Shown here in pieces: positions 7,129-64,000 of a stretch of 64,000 nt of DNA. How positions within the stretch are numbered: position 1 is the stretch's first letter; every line of letters begins with the position of its first letter. The position numbers and the translations under genes are program-made. The notes beneath the pieces were generated by a model. It made no database searches. It was not told the origin of the DNA and saw only the letters and a program-made list of their open reading frames with translations. The stretch comes from Elusimicrobiota bacterium (lineage in GTDB: Bacteria; Elusimicrobiota; Elusimicrobia; Elusimicrobiales; UBA9959), in the NCBI GenBank assembly GCA_012517285.1, contig JAAYVG010000023.1, forward strand, positions 16,925 to 80,924, given 5' to 3'.

Positions 7129-8136
7129 ATGAAAACTGCAAAATTAAAAGTGATCATAGCAGCTACACTTATAACAGCTACTTCATCGTTTTCTATTGCC
7201 GGGGTAAGTAAGGTAATATATGGTGATGACAACAGAAGGGATTATTATTCAATGCCAGAGGATATAAAAGCTATTGCAGATTCAGTAGTATCGCTCTGGG
7301 ATAAAACAAATGTTAGCTTTGATCCTTCATCAAACAGTTATATCCTTTCTACACAAAAATTTGGTGAAAGGCTTAATCTCTGTGATGATGAGCCTTTTAA
7401 GGATCAGACTATCGGAGCTTTTTGCTCTGGTTCCCTTGTTTCTGAGGATACAATCATAACGGCTGGTCATTGCATTACAAATGAGTCAAAGTGTGCATCA
7501 ACTTATTTTGTTTTTGGATATGCTGTAAATGATAAAAATAATCCTGATACCGCAGTTACAAATATTCCTGCATCAAATGTATATAAATGTTCCAAGATAT
7601 TAAAAAGAAATATTGGGCCGGAACCCACTCCTGATAATCCAAGTGGAACAGGGTTAGGTCCTGACTATGCAATAATAAAGCTTGATAGAAGGGTTGAGGG
7701 TAAAAAACCTCTTAGGATGAATTTGAATCAGAATCTATCAAAGGGAGATCCTGTTTTCGTAATAGGATATCCTGTAGGGCTTCCAGTAAAATTTGCTGAT
7801 GGATCTACTATTAGAGATCCATTGCCTGTTGGTTATTTCGTAGCAAATCTTGATACCTACGGTGGGAACTCTGGATCTCCTGTGTTTAACTCAAACACAA
7901 AGTTGATAGAGGGTATATTAGTAAGGGGTGATAATGATTTTATTCAGACTCCTGTTGGATGCAGCGTTTCTAATGTAGTTGACTCTGACGGAGGAAGAGG
8001 TGAGGATGTGACAAAGATATCGGTGCTTGCAAGCTATTTTAATTCTATTCAAAGTAATTCAGTAAGAAGCATATCAGTAAATGTGGAAATGCCAGAAGTT
8101 AGCAGATCAGCTGCTAATTTCAGTTTTGATAGATAA
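7129..8136 (+). CDS. Secreted trypsin-fold (S1, V8/glutamyl-endopeptidase-like) serine protease
   Basis: Signal peptide, then catalytic His in TAGHC, Asp in DYAIIKLD and Ser in GGNSGSPVF. Confidence 0.8.
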   Translation: MKTAKLKVIIAATLITATSSFSIAGVSKVIYGDDNRRDYYSMPEDIKAIADSVVSLWDKTNVSFDPSSNSYILSTQKFGERLNLCDDEPFKDQTIGAFCSGSLVSEDTIITAGHCITNESKCASTYFVFGYAVNDKNNPDTAVTNIPASNVYKCSKILKRNIGPEPTPDNPSGTGLGPDYAIIKLDRRVEGKKPLRMNLNQNLSKGDPVFVIGYPVGLPVKFADGSTIRDPLPVGYFVANLDTYGGNSGSPVFNSNTKLIEGILVRGDNDFIQTPVGCSVSNVVDSDGGRGEDVTKISVLASYFNSIQSNSVRSISVNVEMPEVSRSAANFSFDR

Positions 8137-18340: not shown

Positions 18341-18413
18341 GGGCGTGTAGCTCAGTTGGGAGAGCGCCCCGTTCGCAACGGGGAGGTCGTGGGTTCAAAT
18401 CCCATCACGTCCA
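18341..18413 (+). tRNA. tRNA-Ala (anticodon CGC)
   Basis: The cloverleaf folds by eye. The acceptor stem GGGCGTG/CACGTCC carries the G3:U70 Ala identity pair. The anticodon stem-loop reads CCCCG-TTCGCAA-CGGGG, and a GGTTCAAATCC T-arm is present. No CCA is encoded. Confidence 0.93.
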
Positions 18414-47398: not shown

Positions 47399-49618
47399 AT
47401 GATTTACAAACAACATCTTAAAAAGACCAAAAAAAAAAGCGGTTTCAGTGATGTTGTCTGCTGGATTGTATCAATAGTATTTTGTATTTGGCTTTTCTGG
47501 ATAATTATAAATCCATCACAAAAAGGGATAATAGGTAATTTTGTTTTCAATAATCTTTATGCCTTTATGGGTCCGGGTATATATATATTCCCATTTTTAT
47601 TTTTTTATGGAATGGTAAAAATACTGTTAAAACTTGGCAAACCCAACAAAGGTTTTTTTTCAATGCTCTTCGGTATAGTTTTAACTCTTTCATTCCTTTC
47701 ATCGATAATGGAAAGAATTCATTATCATTTTCCTCAATCTAACTTTGATGCTGGGTGGATAGGATACGTTATAGATACTATTATGCTGAAGCTTTTCGGT
47801 GATATGGGGGCTCTTATTTTTTCTTTTGGATTTATGATAATTGGTATAAATATCATATTTGAAATAAAGTGGATGAAACTGTTTGAAAAAATCATGGTGT
47901 TTATCAGAAAAGACTGGGATGAATGGAAAAAGGCAAAAGAAGAATTGAATCAGAAAAAAAATATAATTATTGAAAAAGAAAAAAATAAAGAAAAAACAAT
48001 TATTTCTAACCCTGTTGTTACAGAAAAACAAACTTCAAATGATATAAAACCTTTAACGCCACATATTCCAGCTGAAAATTTCAAAGAAGAAAAACAAAAG
48101 ATTGCGATGGAAGACCAGAAGACAGAAAAAAAAGCAAAGCAACAGGAGCAATTTCTAGATTTTAAAAATTTTAAGCTTCCGCCAATTGATCTTTTGCAGA
48201 AGAACAATAAGTCAAATGTATATTTGCCTGACAGCACAGAGATTCAGTCTGCTAAGATACAACTTGAAGAAACACTAAAAAACTTCAATATTTCAGCTTA
48301 TATATCGGGTATATATCCAGGACCGGTTATAACAAGATATGAGATAACACCTTCACCGGGTGTTAAGATAAGCTCTATAGTTTCTCTTTCCAATGATATA
48401 GCATTAGCTATGAGATCAATAGGTTCAATAAGAGTCATAGCACCCATACCTGGCAAATCAGCTATAGGTTTTGAAATTCCAAACACAAAAAGGAGTATGG
48501 TAAATCTTAGAGAGGTTATAGAATCTCCTGAATTTAACTCTTCAAAGGGTACACTATCCTTTGCAGTTGGAAGATATAGCGAGGGATCAATCTGCATAGC
48601 AAATCTTGAGGATATGCCTCATCTGTTGGTTGCTGGTGCTACTGGGAGCGGTAAGAGTGTTTTTTTGCAGTCTCTGATACTGTCGCTTATGTATAGGAAT
48701 ACCCCGGACGAGGTAAAATTTCTTTTTATAGATCCAAAACGACTTGAGCTTACATCATATGAAGGAACAGGATATCTCTATGACCCGAAGGTTACTCCTG
48801 ATAAGGTCAGGGTTATAACTGATCCTAAGGAAGCTTCCAAATCTCTTGTTGCCCTTACACGAATTATGGAAAAAAGATATAAAAAATTTGAAAAAGCAAG
48901 GGTAAAAAACATTCAATCATATAACAAGTGGGCTAGACAGAACAATCAACCTGAGGAGTTTTATATAGTAGTTATAATAGATGAACTGGCAGATCTTATG
49001 CTTCAGGCAAAAAATGTTGTGGAGGAATCTATACAGAGACTGACTCAGATGGCAAGAGCAGTTGGAATACATATGGTTCTTGCTACTCAGAGACCATCTG
49101 TTGATGTCATAACAGGTGTTATAAAAGCGAATTTACCATCGAGAATAGCTCTGCAGGTCAGTTCAAAAATAGATTCAAGGGTTATAATAGATTCACCCGG
49201 TGCTGAATCGCTTATAGGAAAGGGAGATATGCTTTTTTTAGGCTCTAATAAAAGCAAGCCAGAAAGAATTCAGGGGTGTTATGTTACGGAGCAGGAGATA
49301 GAAAGGGTTGTTGAATTTATAAAAACTCAAGGTGGGCCGAGCTATCCAATGTATGTAGAGGAAGAGATCAGCTTTGATGGAAAGGGATCAAGCAATGAAG
49401 AGCTTTCAATAGCATTAAGACTTATTCTTGAAAGGAAAAGGGTTTCTCAGGATTTATTAAAGGCTCACTTCGGTTCATCGGCAAGAGCGACAAATCTTTT
49501 GAGCCTTCTTGAAGTAAAAGGTTTTATATACAAGCCTGAGGGAACGAACAGATGGCAGATATACTTTGATAAGATAGAATCGTATCTTAATTCACTTGAA
49601 AATGCTGACAAAAGTTAA
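47399..49618 (+). CDS. ftsK: DNA translocase FtsK
   Basis: 4 N-terminal TM helices, a linker, Walker A AGATGSGKSV, Walker B IIDELADL, and a C-terminal gamma wHTH domain. Confidence 0.93.
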   Translation: MIYKQHLKKTKKKSGFSDVVCWIVSIVFCIWLFWIIINPSQKGIIGNFVFNNLYAFMGPGIYIFPFLFFYGMVKILLKLGKPNKGFFSMLFGIVLTLSFLSSIMERIHYHFPQSNFDAGWIGYVIDTIMLKLFGDMGALIFSFGFMIIGINIIFEIKWMKLFEKIMVFIRKDWDEWKKAKEELNQKKNIIIEKEKNKEKTIISNPVVTEKQTSNDIKPLTPHIPAENFKEEKQKIAMEDQKTEKKAKQQEQFLDFKNFKLPPIDLLQKNNKSNVYLPDSTEIQSAKIQLEETLKNFNISAYISGIYPGPVITRYEITPSPGVKISSIVSLSNDIALAMRSIGSIRVIAPIPGKSAIGFEIPNTKRSMVNLREVIESPEFNSSKGTLSFAVGRYSEGSICIANLEDMPHLLVAGATGSGKSVFLQSLILSLMYRNTPDEVKFLFIDPKRLELTSYEGTGYLYDPKVTPDKVRVITDPKEASKSLVALTRIMEKRYKKFEKARVKNIQSYNKWARQNNQPEEFYIVVIIDELADLMLQAKNVVEESIQRLTQMARAVGIHMVLATQRPSVDVITGVIKANLPSRIALQVSSKIDSRVIIDSPGAESLIGKGDMLFLGSNKSKPERIQGCYVTEQEIERVVEFIKTQGGPSYPMYVEEEISFDGKGSSNEELSIALRLILERKRVSQDLLKAHFGSSARATNLLSLLEVKGFIYKPEGTNRWQIYFDKIESYLNSLENADKS

Positions 49619-53697: not shown

Positions 53698-53788
53698 TTG
53701 ACAAGAATTAATAATGCTGTTAAAATAAATTATAGCGGGCTGCCTCCCTCACCTACCCCCCCCTAAAAGGCAGCCCCCTTTTTTTTCT
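53698..53788 (+). promoter_or_regulatory. Sigma70-like promoter followed by a 9-bp GC stem, a 22-nt C-rich loop and a T8 tract. Candidate attenuator or ~55-nt sRNA.
   Basis: Read directly. Promoter: TTGACA at 53698-53703, a 17-nt spacer, TAAAAT at 53721-53726. Stem: GGGCTGCCT / AGGCAGCCC at 53737-53776. The element is a plus-strand terminator inside a divergent promoter region. Confidence 0.5.
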
Positions 53789-53887
53789 TTTTAAAAAAAC
53801 AAATTAATTGCTTTTCAAAACTATATTTTTTATAATAGTTAATATATAATAATTTTATGCTTTTTTTAATTTTAAAAAAGGGGGAAA

Positions 53888-54835
53888 ATGAGTGATACTT
53901 TTAAGACGATAGTTGTTGTTGATGATGATCCAAATGTAGGTCTTCTTATATCCGTTATACTTAAAAATATTGGCTATTCTGTTGTATCACTTTCAAACGG
54001 TAAAGACCTTCTATCCTATCTTGCAAATAATTCAAAACCCGGACTGATACTCCTTGACTTAAAACTTCCAGATATAGATGGTTACGAGCTCTGCAAGCGA
54101 ATAAGAGATAATCAATTCACCTCTGATGTCCCGATAATTGTTCTTACAGGAGTTTCTGAGGTTGATTCAAAAATTAAGACCATTGAGATGGGGGCTGATG
54201 ACTATATAAGCAAACCATTTGATGTAAGAGAGTTGAAGGTTAGAATAAAAAGAATACTCAAAAGAAAGGATAACGATTCATCCCTTAATCCACTGACAAA
54301 ACTTCCAGGTGGGCCGCTTATAGAGGAATTTACGAGAAAGAAACTTGAAGTAGCTCCTAATTTTTCATATGCATATATAGATATAGATAATTTTAAGGCA
54401 TACAATGATGTTTATGGCTATACAAAGGGCGATGCTGTAATAAAATTTCTTGCTGATCTTTTAGAAAAAGTTTTAAAAGAAAACTCTAAGGGAGATTATT
54501 TTCTGGGTCATGTTGGTGGTGATGATTTTGTTGTATTAGCTCCAAATGATAAAATTATCAGAACTGTGGAAGGAATAATAGAAGAATTTGATACTAAAAT
54601 ACGTGATTATTACAGCATAGCAGACAGACAAGCAGGATATATAACAACAACAGACAGAATGAACAATATTAAGACATTTCCGATTATGACTCTCTCAATT
54701 GCTATAGTATCCGTTAGGAAAAGCATTCCATACGCGAAGATAATAGAAAATATATTTGAAATAAAAAGATTTTTAAAATCGAGACCAGTGAAGAACAAAA
54801 GCATATACCACAAGGATAGAAGAATAAATGAGTGA
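53888..54835 (+). CDS. Response regulator: REC domain + GGDEF-like domain carrying a GGDDF motif
   Basis: REC: DDD, phospho-acceptor in LLDLKLPDIDG, LTG and KPF. GGDEF-like: IDIDNFKAYNDVYGYTKGD and GHVGGDDF (54515-54529). Confidence 0.8.
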   Translation: MSDTFKTIVVVDDDPNVGLLISVILKNIGYSVVSLSNGKDLLSYLANNSKPGLILLDLKLPDIDGYELCKRIRDNQFTSDVPIIVLTGVSEVDSKIKTIEMGADDYISKPFDVRELKVRIKRILKRKDNDSSLNPLTKLPGGPLIEEFTRKKLEVAPNFSYAYIDIDNFKAYNDVYGYTKGDAVIKFLADLLEKVLKENSKGDYFLGHVGGDDFVVLAPNDKIIRTVEGIIEEFDTKIRDYYSIADRQAGYITTTDRMNNIKTFPIMTLSIAIVSVRKSIPYAKIIENIFEIKRFLKSRPVKNKSIYHKDRRINE

Positions 54836-56894: not shown

Positions 56895-57699
56895 AATATC
56901 TTTTTGTGCAAAGACAGATAAGGGGCTTGTTCGTGATCACAATGAGGACAACTATATAATTGATGAGAGTATAAACTTTATGGCAATAGCTGATGGAATG
57001 GGAGGCCATAAAAATGGGGAACTGGCATCAAAAATTGCGATAGAAAAAGCGTATGGAATTATTAAAGATTTTATATCAAGCTCATCATCTTTTGAAAAGA
57101 CAAACAAGGATTATTCAATTTTAACCAACAAACTTTTATCAGCTTTTGATGTGGCGAACAATGAGATACTTGTCCAGTCAAAAAGTGATGAAAAGAATAA
57201 GGGTATGGGAACAACACTAACAGCTGTAATACTGAATGATATGATTCTTTCTCTTGTCCATATAGGCGATTCAAGGGCATATATAATCAGAGATTCTAAG
57301 ATAAAGCAAATATCTGATGACCACTCTTTTGTTATGGAGCAGTACAAGAAGGGAATTATAACTCTTGAAGAAGCGGAGAGATCACCATACAGAAATGTAC
57401 TGACAAGAGCACTTGGTGTTAAAGATGATGTGGAGTATTTTGTTTGTGAGGAAAAGATCAAAAAAGGTGATATAATACTTTTAGCCACTGATGGACTTAC
57501 AAAGATGGTAAAGGATGAAAAAATACTTGAAATAGTAAGCTCTTACTCTGATAACACTGAACTCATATGTTCAAACCTCATATTAGAAGCAAACAAAAAT
57601 GGTGGAGATGACAATATAACCGTTGCTGTGGCAAAGATCGATGGGGAAAAACTTTTGGCTAAGATTAAAAAAAGGATTAAAAAATGGATATTACATTAA
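56884..57699 (+). CDS. PP2C-family Ser/Thr phosphatase
   Basis: RDHNED, ADGMGGH, DGLT and GGDDNIT motifs. Confidence 0.88.
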   Translation: MNYKISFCAKTDKGLVRDHNEDNYIIDESINFMAIADGMGGHKNGELASKIAIEKAYGIIKDFISSSSSFEKTNKDYSILTNKLLSAFDVANNEILVQSKSDEKNKGMGTTLTAVILNDMILSLVHIGDSRAYIIRDSKIKQISDDHSFVMEQYKKGIITLEEAERSPYRNVLTRALGVKDDVEYFVCEEKIKKGDIILLATDGLTKMVKDEKILEIVSSYSDNTELICSNLILEANKNGGDDNITVAVAKIDGEKLLAKIKKRIKKWILH

Positions 57700-58295
57700 A
57701 CATAATTATAAAAAATTCAACAAAAATAGTGGGCGAGTATTTTTTTAAAAGTGATAGAATAACTATTGGAAGAAGCAAAACAAATGACATTGTTATCAAT
57801 GATCAAACAGTATCATCCAATCACTGTGTTATAAAAAAAGATGGCAGTGATTATTTCATAGAAGATCTTGACTCCACAAACGGGACTTTTGTAAACGGCG
57901 AAAAAATAAAAAAAGTGAGAATAAAAAATAATCAGATTTTAAAAATTGCCAGATGTTATGTCAGAATAATATTCTTGGATATGGACATAAGAAAAGCAGT
58001 TCTTAAAGTTATTGAAAATCCACTGGATGACAGAAAATCTTTCGATTTAAACAGATTGACAAAATTTATTGGCAGTTCAAAGTCTGATATACCTGTAAGA
58101 TCAAAAAATCAATTTACAATAATCTCGGACTATGCAGCCGCAGTTTCAATAAAAGATAACAAATACTATTTAATTCCTATAAATCCAGATTTGGTAAAAC
58201 ACAACTCTAATAACATAAAAAATGATATTGAATTAAATGATGACGATGAGATAAATGTAGGGATAACAAAATTTGTTTTTAAATTTGTTGAGTAA
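57684..58295 (+). CDS. FHA-domain protein (N-terminal canonical FHA plus a second divergent FHA-like half)
   Basis: The pattern GR....DI.I.D..VS..H..I......Y.IEDL.STNGT.VNG is present. Confidence 0.8.
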   Translation: MDITLNIIIKNSTKIVGEYFFKSDRITIGRSKTNDIVINDQTVSSNHCVIKKDGSDYFIEDLDSTNGTFVNGEKIKKVRIKNNQILKIARCYVRIIFLDMDIRKAVLKVIENPLDDRKSFDLNRLTKFIGSSKSDIPVRSKNQFTIISDYAAAVSIKDNKYYLIPINPDLVKHNSNNIKNDIELNDDDEINVGITKFVFKFVE

Positions 58296-58350: not shown

Positions 58351-58430
58351 TTAGCAATCACAAATCAAGTCTGCTATTGACAAATAATTTAAAATTTTGT
58401 AAATTAGCAATTATAGGAATAAATTGCTAA
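58351..58430 (+). promoter_or_regulatory. groESL promoter with CIRCE-like operators. Promoter: TTGACA at 58377-58382, 17-nt spacer, TAAATT at 58400-58405. One operator is a perfect inverted repeat, TTAGCAATT-N9-AATTGCTAA (58404-58430). A degenerate copy lies at 58351-58377.
   Basis: Compared with the CIRCE consensus TTAGCACTC-N9-GAGTGCTAA, the outer 6 bp of each arm are conserved. The site overlaps the -10 box. Confidence 0.7.
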
Positions 58431-58447
58431 AAATAAAGGAGGAAGTT

Positions 58448-60423: not shown

Positions 60424-60453
60424 GAGCCCCCTCTTAAAAGAGGGGGCTTTTTT
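60424..60453 (+). terminator. Rho-independent terminator of groESL
   Basis: GCCCCCTCT-TAAA-AGAGGGGGC followed by T6. Confidence 0.9.
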
Positions 60454-60582
60454 CTGTGTGAGATATATTCGAAGAAATGGAAATGATATTGAATACCCTG
60501 CCACCATAATCCCATGAGCAAAAACTATTATCCAGAATTTTAATGAATATTTCATAACTTAATTTTAGGATAGTTTTTCCAC

Positions 60583-60614
60583 TTGACATCACATTTTTTT
60601 TTTTTTTCTACAAT
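60583..60614 (+). promoter_or_regulatory. Promoter of the cassette array. TTGACA (60583-60588) and TACAAT (60609-60614) are separated by a 20-nt spacer that contains a T14 homopolymer (60594-60607).
   Basis: Read directly. SD AAGGAGG and the ATG at 60640 follow. Confidence 0.6.
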
Positions 60615-60639
60615 TTAATAAGATATAAAGGAGGAGAGA

Positions 60640-61461
60640 ATGATAGGGATATTTATGGGTATAATATTGTCAATATACAGCTCATCGTATGCTCAGAATA
60701 AAGATAATGTAATTAATTTGAATGATATTAATTCTGCATTCTCATTAAACTTAAATCAGATTCCAAAACCTGAATTTAAATTAGATAGAAATATTCAAGA
60801 ACTAAACTTTATATTTAACTGGAATGATTTTTATATGAGATATGGTTATGATTTTACATATGAGAATAAAACATTTATGTTAAAGGCAGGATTTTTAAGA
60901 GGAGATTTTGATGAATATACTATGACATATAAGTCAATACCATCAATTATAGTTATATATAAACAAGGAGAAAATCATACTACGGTATGGAATCCAATAA
61001 AAACTGGTGAAAGTATAAATTTTGAAAATAATATTTTGATAACATTTAATAGCAATATGTCTATCACTGTAAAGAATAAAAACAACAATCAACAGATTAT
61101 AAACATTAACTTCAGTGATATTTTAAACAAGTGGCTTGAATATGCTAATAATTATTGGTATTTAGTAAACAACAACAAATATTATTTTGTACCACAGGAG
61201 ATATGGGGAAGTGATGGATTTTTTCACCGAGGATATGTTGTAAGTGAAAACTCACCATTGTACTATACAACAAACCTGCCTCAGGATTATGTAGAGCTAT
61301 ATAAGTATAATTGTGCAACTAATCCATGCTCATACGAATATAAACCTGTATCATATTCAGTTCCTTTAAGGATAAAGTTTGTGCTTAAACAGGATAAGAG
61401 TGCATGGTTAGTTAAGGAGATGACTCCTGAAGAGGTGGCTGACGAGGCTGTTAACAGATAA
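60640..61461 (+). CDS. Cassette protein X1: 273-aa secreted Asn/Tyr-rich protein of unknown function ending in ..PEEVADEAVNR
   Basis: Strong SD and a short hydrophobic N-terminus ending SSSYAQ. The last ~11 codons belong to the junction repeat. Confidence 0.65.
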   Translation: MIGIFMGIILSIYSSSYAQNKDNVINLNDINSAFSLNLNQIPKPEFKLDRNIQELNFIFNWNDFYMRYGYDFTYENKTFMLKAGFLRGDFDEYTMTYKSIPSIIVIYKQGENHTTVWNPIKTGESINFENNILITFNSNMSITVKNKNNNQQIININFSDILNKWLEYANNYWYLVNNNKYYFVPQEIWGSDGFFHRGYVVSENSPLYYTTNLPQDYVELYKYNCATNPCSYEYKPVSYSVPLRIKFVLKQDKSAWLVKEMTPEEVADEAVNR

Positions 61462-61463
61462 AA

Positions 61464-61589
61464 ATGACAGAAAAAAAGAAAAAGATACTATTAAAGATAA
61501 CAGACTGGATACTCAATATTTTAATCATATATTATTTAGGAATAAATTTATTAATTGGTATCGTAGTTTTAATACTGATAATGAAATAA
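61464..61589 (+). CDS. Mini membrane protein A1 (41 aa): MTEKKKKILLKITDWILNILIIYYLGINLLIGIVVLILIMK
   Basis: Starts 2 nt after the X1 stop. It has a Lys-rich N-terminus and one TM helix. It is identical to A3 at protein level, with one synonymous SNP. Confidence 0.55.
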   Translation: MTEKKKKILLKITDWILNILIIYYLGINLLIGIVVLILIMK

Positions 61590-61598
61590 AAGCAGGCT

Positions 61599-61733
61599 AT
61601 GAATATTAAGAAAAAGTTTATAATAAAATTGATTGTATTAATAGCGATGTTTCTCATTTATCAGCTATGGACAGTTAAAATGATAAAAGAAATAAAAGAT
61701 TTTATGCGATCTTTAGAGAGTTTTCTAATATAG
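61599..61733 (+). CDS. Mini membrane protein B1 (44 aa): MNIKKKFIIKLIVLIAMFLIYQLWTVKMIKEIKDFMRSLESFLI
   Basis: Its N-terminal 35 aa are identical to B3 and about 60% identical to B2 despite DNA divergence. Confidence 0.55.
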   Translation: MNIKKKFIIKLIVLIAMFLIYQLWTVKMIKEIKDFMRSLESFLI

Positions 61734-61778
61734 GAATGATACTGAAGAGGTGGCTGACGAGGCTGTTAACAGATAAAA

Positions 61779-61916
61779 ATGACAGAAAAAAAGAAAAAGA
61801 TACTATTAAGGATAACAGACTGGATACTCAATATTTTAATCATATATTATTTAATAATGAATTTAGTAAGTGGTATTTTCGCTTTAATATGGGCAATCAA
61901 TGAAGGCAAATTATGA
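61779..61916 (+). CDS. Mini membrane protein A2 (45 aa), a diverged paralogue of A1/A3
   Basis: The first 25 aa match A1 apart from K11R. The tail diverges but stays hydrophobic. It is preceded by an orphan ..EEVADEAVNR-stop stub (61742-61776). Confidence 0.55.
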   Translation: MTEKKKKILLRITDWILNILIIYYLIMNLVSGIFALIWAINEGKL

Positions 61917-62101
61917 ATATTAGGAAAAAGTTTATTATAAAGATAATAGTTTTTTTGATAATGTTTACAGTTTACCAGTTATGGAGCATTAAAGTAATAG
62001 ATAAAATAAATGATATGATAGAATACGGTCGATGCCAGCCTTGGTGGATAATAGGAAATTTAAAATACTGTAATAAAAAACCATGGTGGCAATTTTGGTG
62101 A
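61913..62101 (+). CDS. Mini protein B2 (62 aa) with a conserved B-type N-terminus and a Trp/Cys-rich tail (EYGRCQPWWIIGNLKYCNKKPWWQFW)
   Basis: ATGA overlap with A2. ORF present in the supplied track. Confidence 0.6.
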   Translation: MNIRKKFIIKIIVFLIMFTVYQLWSIKVIDKINDMIEYGRCQPWWIIGNLKYCNKKPWWQFW

Positions 62102-62107
62102 TGTTAT

Positions 62108-63298
62108 ATGAAAAAAATATTTAATATGATGTTGTTTTTTTTGATTCTTATTTCACCCATAGATATATATGCAAACACAGAAAACGATTTAATTGATTTA
62201 TACAATAGTAGTTTTAACAATGACAATATTATAATTCCAACTCCAGATTTTTCGATTGATGATGATAAAAGTTCTATCCTTGTATATTTACTTGGGAGAT
62301 ACAAAAAATTAAATGAATCTGAGGAAAGCAAGATTTCCGTTTCATTGAACATACTAAGCCAGACAATAACTGGAAACATCCTATGCTCAAAATTAGGGGT
62401 TCAGGATTGTACACGAAGGGAATTAAGCAAGATAAATTTGGAATTTAGAAAAGGTGATTTGCTTTCTTCATTATTTGGAGAGCCAACATTTTATGCTTTT
62501 GTCCCACCACCATCTCAAGTTAACAAGAGAAAGATTATATGCATAGATGAGGGTTTTTTAGATACTTCAGATGTATCTGTCACTGCCCATTTTATTGCTC
62601 ATGAGATTTCACATGTATATGATAATAAAATATTTGGTGAATACTACCATTTTGAATTATATGAAGGGAAAATCAAGCCAAGAATGAATCAATTAAGAAT
62701 GCTATTTTCAGAGTATAAAGCTGTATTCATTCAAATGTCTATATATAATGAGCTTGTAACAAAAAAGTATATTAAACGCAACAGAAACGATGCAATAGAT
62801 TTTTTATTATCAATCTATAGATGGAAAGAAACAGGAAATATAAAAGAGATAAACCTTAACTTTACAAATAATGTCGGGAATAAAACATACACAGCAAAGG
62901 ATTATATGAACATATGTAAAAAAGTTAAGAATGGAAGAAGTTGTATATATGAATTAACAAAAATTTTTTGTGGTATAAACCTATCAAACATGAATCTATC
63001 CAATGATGAAGCTCAGAGAAATTATATCTATATAGATTTTGTGATCAAAAATGTAAAAGAATATGAAAGCAAATACAAAAATTTTTTTCCTCCAACACAG
63101 CCAATAGAACCAGAGAACAACAACACTGATAATAATGATAACAACCATCCACACCCACCGTCACCAATTCAGCCGGGACCAGTTCCTCAACCACCTGATT
63201 ACGATCCACCATGGGATGACCATAACGGAAACCCATCAACCCCGCCAATACACATGAGATATAAATCATTGATTGATTTCATTGAAGATAATATATAA
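62108..63298 (+). CDS. Cassette protein X3: 396-aa secreted protein with an HExxH motif (putative Zn metallopeptidase) and a Pro-rich C-terminal region
   Basis: Signal peptide MKKIFNMMLFFLILISPIDIYA. FIAHEISHVYD at 62600-62614. C-terminal region PPTQPIEPE..HPHPPSPIQPGPVPQPPDYDPPWDD. Confidence 0.65.
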   Translation: MKKIFNMMLFFLILISPIDIYANTENDLIDLYNSSFNNDNIIIPTPDFSIDDDKSSILVYLLGRYKKLNESEESKISVSLNILSQTITGNILCSKLGVQDCTRRELSKINLEFRKGDLLSSLFGEPTFYAFVPPPSQVNKRKIICIDEGFLDTSDVSVTAHFIAHEISHVYDNKIFGEYYHFELYEGKIKPRMNQLRMLFSEYKAVFIQMSIYNELVTKKYIKRNRNDAIDFLLSIYRWKETGNIKEINLNFTNNVGNKTYTAKDYMNICKKVKNGRSCIYELTKIFCGINLSNMNLSNDEAQRNYIYIDFVIKNVKEYESKYKNFFPPTQPIEPENNNTDNNDNNHPHPPSPIQPGPVPQPPDYDPPWDDHNGNPSTPPIHMRYKSLIDFIEDNI

Positions 63299-63367
63299 AA
63301 TTAGTTTAGAGAATAAAATGATCGACATAGTTATTCATCTGGCTGACGAGGCAGTTAACAGATAAAA

Positions 63368-63493
63368 ATGACAGAAAAAAAGAAAAAGATACTATTAAAG
63401 ATAACAGACTGGATACTCAATATTTTAATCATATATTATTTAGGAATAAATTTATTAATTGGTATCGTGGTTTTAATACTGATAATGAAATAA
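63368..63493 (+). CDS. Mini membrane protein A3 (41 aa), identical in protein sequence to A1
   Basis: Part of junction-repeat copy 3 (63340-63607), which differs from copy 1 at 2 of 268 nt. Confidence 0.55.
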   Translation: MTEKKKKILLKITDWILNILIIYYLGINLLIGIVVLILIMK

Positions 63494-63502
63494 AAGCAGG
63501 CT

Positions 63503-63661
63503 ATGAATATTAAGAAAAAGTTTATAATAAAATTGATTGTATTAATAGCGATGTTTCTCATTTATCAGCTATGGACAGTTAAAATGATAAAAGAAATAAA
63601 AGATTTTGCACAATCTTTAGAGCGTATACCCTATTCATTAGGTCCAGGTCAAAATAATTGA
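63503..63661 (+). CDS. Mini membrane protein B3 (52 aa): B-type N-terminus with a third, different tail (AQSLERIPYSLGPGQNN)
   Basis: Read directly. The downstream DNA retains a decayed homologue of the B2 tail. Confidence 0.5.
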   Translation: MNIKKKFIIKLIVLIAMFLIYQLWTVKMIKEIKDFAQSLERIPYSLGPGQNN

Positions 63662-63940: not shown

Positions 63941-64000
63941 ATGCTGGTTGTATTAGATAATTCTCCTGTTTATAAAAGCAGTAAAAATTTGCTATAATAT

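What the first reader, a model, noticed from the sequence alone, without database searches (positions are those of the whole stretch)
60583..60614. T14 homopolymer inside the -35/-10 spacer of the cassette-array promoter: candidate phase-variation switch
TTGACA (60583-60588) and TACAAT (60609-60614) are near-consensus hexamers, but they are separated by 20 nt rather than about 17. Fourteen of those 20 nt form an uninterrupted T run (60594-60607).

Length changes of homopolymers in promoter spacers by slipped-strand mispairing are an established on/off or volume-control mechanism for surface and secreted proteins in several bacteria. Here a contraction of 3 T would restore the optimal spacing. 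The tract sits directly upstream of the variable secreted-protein locus.
Basis: partly seen in the sequence, partly recalled or inferred. Interest (0 to 1): 0.65.

Follow-up and report, generated by a model that had tools for sequence, protein, structure and literature searches.

The report
Variable-length T tract in promoter spacer
A run of 14 T's sits between the two recognition boxes of a promoter driving a strain-variable secreted-protein island in an uncultured Elusimicrobia bacterium; the run has a different length in related strains, which fits a known kind of mutational on/off or volume control, but switching has not been shown.

Summary
TTGACA (60583-88), T14 (60594-60607) and TACAAT (60609-14) give a 20-nt spacer, followed by GGAGG and the ATG at 60640. 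T14 is the longest homopolymer in the window; the next longest is 10.

The window comes from an Elusimicrobiales MAG. I recovered the same locus from 11 other assemblies of the same species (99.4-99.7% identical). They carry T9 (spacer 15), T10 (spacer 16, with TTGACA or TTAACA) or T8CTCTC (spacer 18). Only the window has T14 (spacer 20), and no assembly has the optimal 17.

The tract is the most length-variable site in 6.7 kb. T9 and T10 strains have identical downstream genes. Two k=31 Logan contigs end exactly at the tract junction, which hints at mixed lengths within a sample.

The promoter heads a lineage-specific island between groEL and yggS: an orphan secreted all-beta protein with pN/pS near 1, small membrane ORFs, and an extra cassette in this strain only.

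So tract-length tuning of this promoter is plausible, and the window allele is predicted to be weak or off. Rapid reversible switching, the transcription start and any effect on expression remain untested. It would be a new member of a well-known mechanism, in a new phylum. Interest is moderate.

The parts
60424..60453 (+). groEL intrinsic terminator: an 11-bp GC-rich hairpin plus a T tail. The tail is T6 here and T7 or T8 in other strains.
   Evidence: Terminator scan; strain alignment.
60583..60588 (+). -35 hexamer TTGACA. It reads TTAACA in three other strains.
60589..60608 (+). 20-nt promoter spacer, TCACA-T14-C.
   Evidence: Other strains have spacers of 15, 16 or 18 nt.
60594..60607 (+). 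T14 homopolymer, the length-variable element. Alleles in other strains are T9, T10 and T8CTCTC.
60609..60614 (+). -10 hexamer TACAAT, invariant in all 12 assemblies. There is no TG extension.
60628..60636 (+). Ribosome-binding site AAGGAGGAG, 4 nt upstream of the ATG.
   Evidence: conserved among strains.
60640..61461 (+). orf273. It has a signal-peptide-like N-terminus (MIGIFMGIILSIYSSSYA/QN) and belongs to an orphan all-beta protein family. It is identical to NLH39095.1 (GX445_03425).
60952..60993 (+). Hypervariable patch of orf273 (codons 105-118) with three alleles among strains.
61436..61721 (+). Repeat unit 1. It holds the last 26 nt of orf273 and two small single-TM ORFs (61464-61589, 41 aa; 61599-61733, 44 aa).
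61719..63339 (+). 1.6-kb extra cassette present only in this strain. It contains a remnant of the orf273 3' end, a divergent small-ORF pair (61779-61916, 61913-62101) and a 396-aa signal-peptide HExxH (HEISH) protein (62108-63298).
   Evidence: BLAST against other strains. The 396-aa protein has no homologue apart from itself.
63340..63625 (+). Repeat unit 3, 98% identical to unit 1, with small ORFs at 63368-63493 and 63503-63661. Collinear with the other strains from here on.
63969..63998 (+). Separate promoter-like site (TTTATA-18-TG-TATAAT) in front of the next gene, yggS, which lies just beyond the window end.

Best explanation
The element is a sigma-70-type promoter that serves a lineage-specific accessory island. 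The island encodes orf273 (a secreted all-beta protein), small membrane ORFs and, in this strain, a second secreted-protein cassette.

The -35/-10 spacer of this promoter is made mostly of a slippage-prone T tract. Gain or loss of T's by replication slippage changes the distance and rotational phase between TTGACA and TACAAT, and so sets promoter strength.

Among strains of the species the spacer is 15, 16, 18 or 20 nt. With T14 (20 nt), no usable -35 lies 16-18 nt upstream of the -10, so the island is predicted to be weakly transcribed or silent in the window's strain. The T10 allele (16 nt) and the T8CTCTC allele (18 nt) are predicted to be active.

**Shown:** the anatomy, the length polymorphism, and the variability of the island.

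**Inferred:** that this is the promoter in use, that its strength depends on tract length, and that the changes are frequent and reversible. I put about 0.55 on tract-length-dependent expression differences between strains, and about 0.3 on genuine high-frequency phase variation.
For: **Anatomy**
- The order is a perfect -35, a 5/6 -10, GGAGG and the ATG, all placed directly after a strong groEL terminator. The island therefore needs its own promoter.

**The organism uses this promoter type with 17-nt spacers**
- TTGACA-17-TAAATT precedes groES and is followed by a CIRCE-like inverted repeat.
- Three more TTGACA-17-TAnnAT sites lie upstream of genes.

**Length polymorphism**
- The 12 assemblies of the species carry five promoter alleles and four spacer lengths: T9/15, T10/16, TTAACA+T10/16, T8CTCTC/18 and T14/20.
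- The 6.7 kb aligned at 99.4-99.7% identity contains only 4 indel blocks, and the tract has the widest length range, 5 nt.
- Twelve other A/T runs of 7-8 nt in the 3 kb downstream do not vary.
- The T9 and T10 haplotypes have identical orf273 sequences, so the tract changes faster than 819 nt of neighbouring DNA.

**Hint of mixed lengths within samples**
- Two Logan contigs, which are k=31 graph assemblies (PMC12424806), end with a last 31-mer that starts at the A just before the tract. This holds for the T10 contig from SRR16297627 and the T9 contig from SRR17288838.
- That is the expected break point if reads with a longer T run are also present.
- The interrupted T8CTCTC allele assembles straight through.

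**The regulated genes fit the contingency-gene profile**
- The island is absent from the nearest species, and an MFS transporter gene takes its place in another lineage.
- Cassette content differs between strains.
- orf273 has a signal-peptide-like N-terminus, pN/pS of 0.6-2.5 and a hypervariable patch, whereas groEL changes are all synonymous.

**Precedent**
- Indels in the -35/-10 spacer switch vlp, maa2 and vmm on and off in mycoplasmas (PMC2268961).
- The T13-19 tract in the H. pylori sabA promoter region varies within populations (PMC2715451).
Against: - There is no read-level, transcript or reporter data. The transcription start is unknown.
- No strain has the optimal 17-nt spacer.
- The modal alleles, T9 and T10, are short enough to be fairly stable.
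- Identical haplotypes from different samples have the same consensus length (3 of 3, 3 of 3, 2 of 2). Some of these assemblies may derive from the same raw data.
- T14 is seen once, in a MAG consensus, where homopolymer length is the least reliable feature.
- By composition alone, a T14 somewhere in a 67% AT genome is not rare.
- The groEL terminator T tail also varies (T6-8), so intergenic T runs drift in length in this species without any special function.
- pN/pS near 1 could reflect relaxed constraint rather than diversifying selection.
- A T tract just upstream of the M. agalactiae vpma -10 has no phase-variation role. The short nspA A-tract differs between meningococcal strains without detectable switching (PMC6389960).
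Confidence: 0.55

Rival explanations
1. The tract is a neutral mutational hot spot. It is an AT-rich intergenic homopolymer that drifts in length between strains. These are slow, fixed allelic differences that are neither reversible on ecological time scales nor selected. Island expression is either insensitive to the tract or simply decaying.
For: - The terminator T tail 150 nt upstream also varies (T6/7/8).
- All four indel blocks in the 6.7 kb lie in this one 250-nt intergenic region, which also has the highest SNP density at 40 per kb.
- Consensus length is stable within each haplotype across samples.
- No allele sits at 17 nt.
- pN/pS near 1 in orf273 is compatible with relaxed constraint.
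- The nspA precedent shows strain-fixed tract alleles without detectable phase variation.
Against: - The -10 and the RBS are invariant, and orf273 is intact in all haplotypes.
- An uninterrupted tract of at least 9 T is kept in 4 of 5 alleles, although such tracts are depleted in this genome (6 runs of 9 or more observed against 9.6 expected).
- Amino-acid changes cluster in one patch rather than being spread evenly.
- Two Logan contigs break exactly at the tract junction.
Confidence: 0.25
2. The hexamers are not the promoter in use. orf273 would be transcribed from an upstream start, either the ATGATA-16-CATAAT site at 60483-60510 or read-through from groEL. The tract would then be a U-run in the 5' leader, where it could pair with the purine-rich RBS (AAAGGAGGAGAGAA) and modulate translation.
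For: - The scan lists a 9/12 promoter-like site at 60483-60510.
- The minimum-free-energy fold of 60520-60645 pairs the U14 run with the RBS region.
Against: - The fold is no better than shuffled sequence (z = -1.26; 19 of 200 shuffles fold as well) and rests on weak U-A and U-G pairs.
- The upstream site is a poor match, of a kind found at chance frequency in this DNA.
- The groEL terminator is strong, with 11 pairs of which 7 are GC, plus a T tail.
- TTGACA/TACAAT is a far better match to the promoters seen elsewhere in the window.
Confidence: 0.1
3. The T14 length is an assembly or sequencing artefact of this one MAG. The real tract would be closer to the T9-T10 seen elsewhere, leaving nothing unusual in this strain.
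For: - T14 occurs only in the window, and the other 11 assemblies have 10 or fewer uninterrupted T's.
- Long homopolymers are the most error-prone sites in short-read consensus sequences (general knowledge).
Against: - The window shows no other indels relative to its relatives across 6.7 kb of mostly coding sequence, so the assembly is not indel-prone in general.
- An error of +4 is large for Illumina consensus calling.
- Even if T14 were wrong, the T9 / T10 / T8CTCTC polymorphism would remain.
Confidence: 0.1

Closest known systems
Mycoplasma promoter-spacer tracts: vlp (M. hyorhinis, poly-A), maa2 (M. arthritidis), vmm (M. mycoides)
   Same: An A/T simple repeat lies between -35 and -10 of a promoter for variable surface or secreted proteins in an AT-rich genome. 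Indels change the spacer length and turn transcription on or off (PMC2268961).
   Different: In those systems, switching and its transcriptional effect were measured in clonal cultures. Here only between-strain polymorphism is shown. The host is a free-living, uncultured Elusimicrobiales bacterium, and the product is an orphan non-lipoprotein family.
[quoted passage not shown]
   Same: A T tract of similar length (T13-19) lies in a promoter region. Its length differs between strains and within populations (PMC2715451).
   Different: From my own knowledge of later work, the sabA tract lies next to the -35 element rather than forming the spacer, and acts as a rheostat through DNA geometry. sabA also has a coding CT repeat. 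No coding repeat is seen in orf273.
Neisseria and Haemophilus promoter-spacer repeats (porA poly-G, opc poly-C, hifA/B TA repeats)
   Same: Repeat length sets the -35/-10 spacing and gives graded expression: high, intermediate or none (own knowledge).
   Different: These are G/C or dinucleotide repeats in host-adapted pathogens that carry many contingency loci per genome. This 64-kb window contains only one tract longer than 10 nt.
M. agalactiae vpma promoter T tract and N. meningitidis nspA A tract (negative precedents)
   Same: Both are homopolymers in or beside the promoter core, and nspA shows strain-to-strain length differences.
   Different: The vpma tract was shown not to generate phase variation. 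For nspA, no phase variation was detected. Both show that anatomy alone does not establish a switch.

Membership tests
Phase-variable promoter with a simple-sequence repeat in the -35/-10 spacer (contingency locus) | An uninterrupted simple-sequence repeat long enough to slip (about 8-9 nt or more for homopolymers) | tested here: met
   T14 at 60594-60607. Other strains carry T9 or T10, and one allele is interrupted (T8CTCTC).
Phase-variable promoter with a simple-sequence repeat in the -35/-10 spacer (contingency locus) | The repeat lies between recognisable -35 and -10 elements of the promoter that drives the gene | tested here: inconclusive
   Met at the sequence level: TTGACA and TACAAT flank the tract, a terminator lies upstream and an RBS plus ATG downstream, and the organism has canonical 17-nt-spacer promoters elsewhere. 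Whether this promoter is the one used (transcription start) cannot be tested with these tools.
Phase-variable promoter with a simple-sequence repeat in the -35/-10 spacer (contingency locus) | Repeat length differs among strains while the flanks are conserved | tested here: met
   Four spacer lengths (15, 16, 18, 20) occur in 12 assemblies at 99.4-99.7% identity. The tract is the most length-variable site in 6.7 kb.
Phase-variable promoter with a simple-sequence repeat in the -35/-10 spacer (contingency locus) | High-frequency, reversible length change within a clonal population | tested here: inconclusive
   No reads were available. As an indirect hint, two k=31 Logan contigs end exactly at the tract junction, as expected if longer-tract reads co-occur. 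Sequencing stutter or co-occurring strains could produce the same break. Identical haplotypes keep the same consensus length across samples.
Phase-variable promoter with a simple-sequence repeat in the -35/-10 spacer (contingency locus) | Repeat length changes transcription of the downstream gene | not testable with these tools
   This is only inferred from the general dependence of sigma-70 promoters on a 17 +/- 1 nt spacer. In the T14 allele, no -35-like hexamer lies 16-18 nt upstream of TACAAT (the candidates are ACATCA, GACATC and CATCAC; read).
Phase-variable promoter with a simple-sequence repeat in the -35/-10 spacer (contingency locus) | The controlled product is a surface, secreted or otherwise conditionally useful protein | tested here: inconclusive
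   In favour: a signal-peptide-like N-terminus, pN/pS of 0.6-2.5, a hypervariable patch, a lineage-specific island and variable cassette content. Unresolved: function and location are unknown. There is no Pfam or NCBIfam match and no structural match in the PDB.
Intrinsic terminator (T tail) | A GC-rich hairpin immediately upstream of the T run | tested here: not met
   The scan finds a terminator only at 60424-60449. The sequence before T14 (CCACTTGACATCACA) forms no hairpin.
Known structured RNA (riboswitch or leader) covering the tract | A match to an Rfam family | tested here: not met
   The only Rfam hit in the window is a tRNA at 18341-18413.

The most novel reading that the evidence does not exclude
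This is a genuine contingency locus in a free-living, uncultured Elusimicrobiales bacterium. Slippage of the spacer T tract would stochastically switch on and off a horizontally mobile, strain-variable island inserted between groEL and yggS. The island encodes a previously undescribed secreted all-beta protein family with a hypervariable loop, plus small membrane proteins and swappable cassettes. That would point to bet-hedging against phages, predators or competitors in engineered or sediment communities, outside the host-adapted pathogens where such switches are known.
Probability: 0.3. Interest if true: 0.55.

Novelty: new member of a known kind. Interest (0 to 1): 0.4.

Why it matters
Promoter-spacer repeats are textbook switches in host-adapted pathogens such as Neisseria, Haemophilus, Mycoplasma and Helicobacter. 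My literature search found nothing on phase variation specific to Elusimicrobia.

If confirmed, this would extend slippage-based bet-hedging to an uncultured environmental phylum. It would also mark the orf273 family, which has about 59 representative clusters, no annotation and no known fold, as a conditionally expressed extracellular factor worth characterising.

The practical value is modest. The mechanism is not new, and the test (tract-length counts in existing reads) is simple.

Tried and rejected
**Searches that returned nothing or nothing new**
- Exact-protein look-ups of the window's orf273, of P0007 and of the 41-aa ORF found no record.
- The 52-aa ORF look-up returned no new strains.
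- A genome-contig scan with orf273 found no relative. The species appears not to be among the representative genomes: the nearest GroEL is 88% identical, from MAG SKW254.
- The 396-aa HExxH protein has no homologue other than itself.

**Attempts to assign a function to orf273**
- Pfam and NCBIfam give only sub-threshold noise for orf273, the 396-aa protein and the small ORFs.
- The AF2 model of orf273 is confident (pLDDT 88), but Foldseek against the PDB gives only spurious beta-propeller hits (TM about 0.15).

**Alternative readings of the tract that I rejected**
- Distant homologues of orf273 (37-38% identity; L002-L013) sit in other genomic contexts and have no tract upstream, so the tract is not a family feature.
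- The tract is not a terminator tail, because no hairpin precedes it.
- It is not a known RNA.
- The hypervariable patch is not a diversity-generating retroelement target with a template in the window, because the window holds no second copy of it.
- The idea that the U-tract masks the RBS is not supported statistically.

Full report
**1. The observation**

The sequence at 60583-60614 reads TTGACA-TCACA-T14-C-TACAAT. The spacer is 20 nt, and 14 of those are an uninterrupted T run at 60594-60607. AAGGAGGAG follows at 60628-60636, then the ATG of a 273-codon ORF at 60640. A strong groEL terminator lies 130 nt upstream, at 60424-60449 plus its T tail.

T14 is the longest homopolymer in the window. 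The next is A10, and all others are 9 or shorter. A first-order Markov model expects 0.067 A/T runs of 14 or more per 64 kb. The tract is therefore unusual locally, but composition alone would yield a couple per genome. Its placement and its behaviour among strains are what matter.

The consensus scan misses this promoter because it only allows spacers of 16-18. It also finds promoter-like sites at the chance rate in this 33% GC DNA.

**2. Whose genome this is**

orf273 is 100% identical to NLH39095.1 (GX445_03425), from a MAG labelled Elusimicrobia bacterium. The 396-aa ORF downstream is GX445_03435. The closest species-representative genome by GroEL is Elusimicrobiales MAG SKW254, at 88% identity.

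**3. Does this organism use such promoters?**

Yes, by sequence. groES is preceded by TTGACA-17-TAAATT, followed directly by a CIRCE-like inverted repeat (TTAGCAATT-N9-AATTGCTAA). Three more TTGACA-17-TAnnAT sites lie upstream of genes, at 53698, 51427 and 44313 on the minus strand. All four have mixed-sequence 17-nt spacers. T tracts are therefore not a general feature of promoter spacers here.

**4. The same promoter in other strains**

I used a DNA pattern search and exact-protein look-ups of P0001 (the orf273 homologue), GroEL and GroES to recover the locus from 11 further assemblies. They are 99.4-99.7% identical to the window over 6.7 kb. The alleles are listed below.

| Allele | Spacer (nt) | Assemblies |
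|---|---|---|
| TTGACA + T14 | 20 | window only |
| TTGACA + T10 | 16 | ERZ27257506; JGI 3300028903; SRR8554100 |
| TTGACA + T9 | 15 | JGI 3300050581; JGI 3300050333; SRR17288838 |
| TTAACA + T10 | 16 | GCA_018000795.1; JGI 3300044580; SRR16297627 |
| TTGACA + T8CTCTC | 18 | JGI 3300050336; SRR17288841 |

- The -10 element and the RBS are invariant.
- The 6.7-kb alignment has only four indel blocks, all inside the 250-nt groEL-orf273 intergenic region. Two are in T runs: the terminator tail (T6/7/8) and the spacer tract, which has the widest range at 5 nt.
- Twelve A/T runs of 7-8 nt in the next 3 kb do not vary among five strains.
- The T9 and T10 haplotypes have identical orf273 genes. The tract therefore changes faster than the adjacent 819 nt.
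- Identical haplotypes from different samples carry the same consensus length. Some of these may be re-assemblies of the same data.
- No assembly has the optimal 17-nt spacer.

**5. A hint of heterogeneity within samples**

Logan contigs come from a k=31 de Bruijn graph with conservative simplification, and k-mers seen only once are dropped (PMC12424806). Two Logan contigs end with a last 31-mer that begins at the A immediately 5' of the tract:
- ATTTTTTTTTTCTACAATTTAATAAGATATA (T10, SRR16297627)
- ATTTTTTTTTCTACAATTTAATAAGATATAA (T9, SRR17288838)

In both cases the next k-mer would start inside the pure T run, so it would be shared with any longer-tract variant. A second incoming edge, from reads with at least one more T, explains both break points. 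A downstream SNP would have to sit at two different positions to do the same.

The interrupted T8CTCTC contig and one T10 contig assemble straight through. This is suggestive only, because Illumina or PCR stutter, or co-occurring strains, could have the same effect.

**6. What the promoter drives**

In the nearest species, groEL is followed directly by yggS. In another lineage with the same GroES, a minus-strand MFS transporter gene fills the gap. The orf273 island is thus a lineage-specific insertion at a variable junction.

*orf273*
- It has a signal-peptide-like N-terminus. The start is MK in one allele.
- It has no Pfam or NCBIfam match.
- It has 59 representative relatives in 1.8 billion proteins.
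- Its AF2 model is a confident all-beta structure (pLDDT 88) with no real PDB match.
- Among strains it has 31.6 variable sites per kb and pN/pS of 0.6-2.5, and replacements cluster in codons 105-118. groES shows no changes, and all 13 variable sites in groEL are synonymous.

*Downstream of orf273*
- A 286-nt unit follows, starting with the last 26 nt of orf273 and encoding two small single-TM ORFs.
- The window alone carries an extra 1.6 kb at 61719-63339. It holds a diverged copy of that unit and an orphan 396-aa signal-peptide HExxH protein.
- No terminator is predicted inside the array, so co-transcription from the T-tract promoter is plausible. This is an inference.
- yggS has its own promoter-like site at 63969-63998.

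**7. Mechanism proposed**

Replication slippage changes the number of T's. That changes the -35/-10 distance and phasing, which changes promoter strength. By the general rule that sigma-70 promoters work best with 17 +/- 1 nt (established knowledge):
- T10 (16 nt) and T8CTCTC (18 nt) should be active.
- T9 (15 nt) should be weak.
- T14 (20 nt) should be close to off.

In the T14 allele the hexamers 16-18 nt upstream of TACAAT are CATCAC, ACATCA and GACATC, and there is no TG extension. The interrupted allele looks like a stabilised 18-nt version.

The anatomy and the polymorphism are shown. Promoter use, the effect on expression, and the rate and reversibility of change are inferred.

**8. Comparison with known systems**

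The closest parallels are the mycoplasma vlp, maa2 and vmm promoters, where spacer indels turn transcription on or off (PMC2268961). The H. pylori sabA promoter-region T13-19 tract, which varies within populations, is also close (PMC2715451).

There are equally relevant cautions:
- The T tract just upstream of the M. agalactiae vpma -10 plays no part in phase variation.
- The nspA A-tract differs between meningococcal strains without detectable switching (PMC6389960).

A literature search found nothing on phase variation specific to Elusimicrobia.

**9. Verdict**

The rivals are neutral intergenic drift, a different promoter with the tract lying in the leader, and a mis-called T14 in this one MAG.

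This would be a new member of a known kind of mechanism in a new phylum. It is of moderate interest and can be tested cheaply from existing reads.

Noticed in passing
window 53698-53790: A TTGACA-17-TAAAAT promoter-like site is followed within about 10 nt by a hairpin (GGGCTGCC...GGCAGCCC) and a T8 run. The hairpin encloses the only C8 run in the window (53756-63). It looks like a self-contained unit of about 60 nt, either a small RNA or a leader/attenuator, upstream of the GGDEF response-regulator gene at 53888. It has no Rfam match.
   Followed up: partly
window 47429-47438: The second-longest homopolymer (A10) lies inside codons 11-14 (KKKS) of the 739-aa ORF 47399-49618, just before its first hydrophobic segment. 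It is a possible frameshift-type slippage site.
   Followed up: no
window 60952-60993 (orf273 codons 105-118): This is a hypervariable patch with three alleles among strains (GENHTTVWN, RENYIRALK, RENYAMIWK), while the rest of the protein is nearly invariant. The window holds no second copy, so no DGR-like template is evident.
   Followed up: partly
window 61436-61721, 61751-62036, 63340-63625: A 286-nt repeat unit begins with the last 26 nt of orf273 and encodes two small single-TM ORFs. Copies 1 and 3 are 98% identical and flank a 1.6-kb segment found only in this strain. This pattern suggests cassette gain by recombination between the repeats.
   Followed up: partly
window 62108-63298: A 396-aa protein with a signal peptide, an HEISH (HExxH) motif and a proline-rich C-terminus. 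It has no homologue other than itself among 5.8 billion proteins.
   Followed up: partly
L105 5467-6953 and L015 10345-10458: The groEL-yggS junction is an accessory-gene hot spot. It is empty in MAG SKW254, holds a minus-strand MFS transporter in DRR438537, and holds the orf273 island in the window's species.
   Followed up: partly
L099 about 7283-7408: In the T8CTCTC strain, the sequence diverges from all other strains about 40 nt before yggS and the contig then ends. This may be another cassette or an insertion.
   Followed up: no
window 58406-58432: A CIRCE-like inverted repeat (TTAGCAATT-N9-AATTGCTAA) lies directly after the groES -10 element. This implies HrcA-type heat-shock control in this Elusimicrobiales lineage.
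   Followed up: no
window 57684-58295: The FHA-domain gene next to the Ser/Thr kinase and PP2C phosphatase genes has an elevated SNP density among strains (19.6 per kb, against 3-8 per kb in its neighbours).
   Followed up: no
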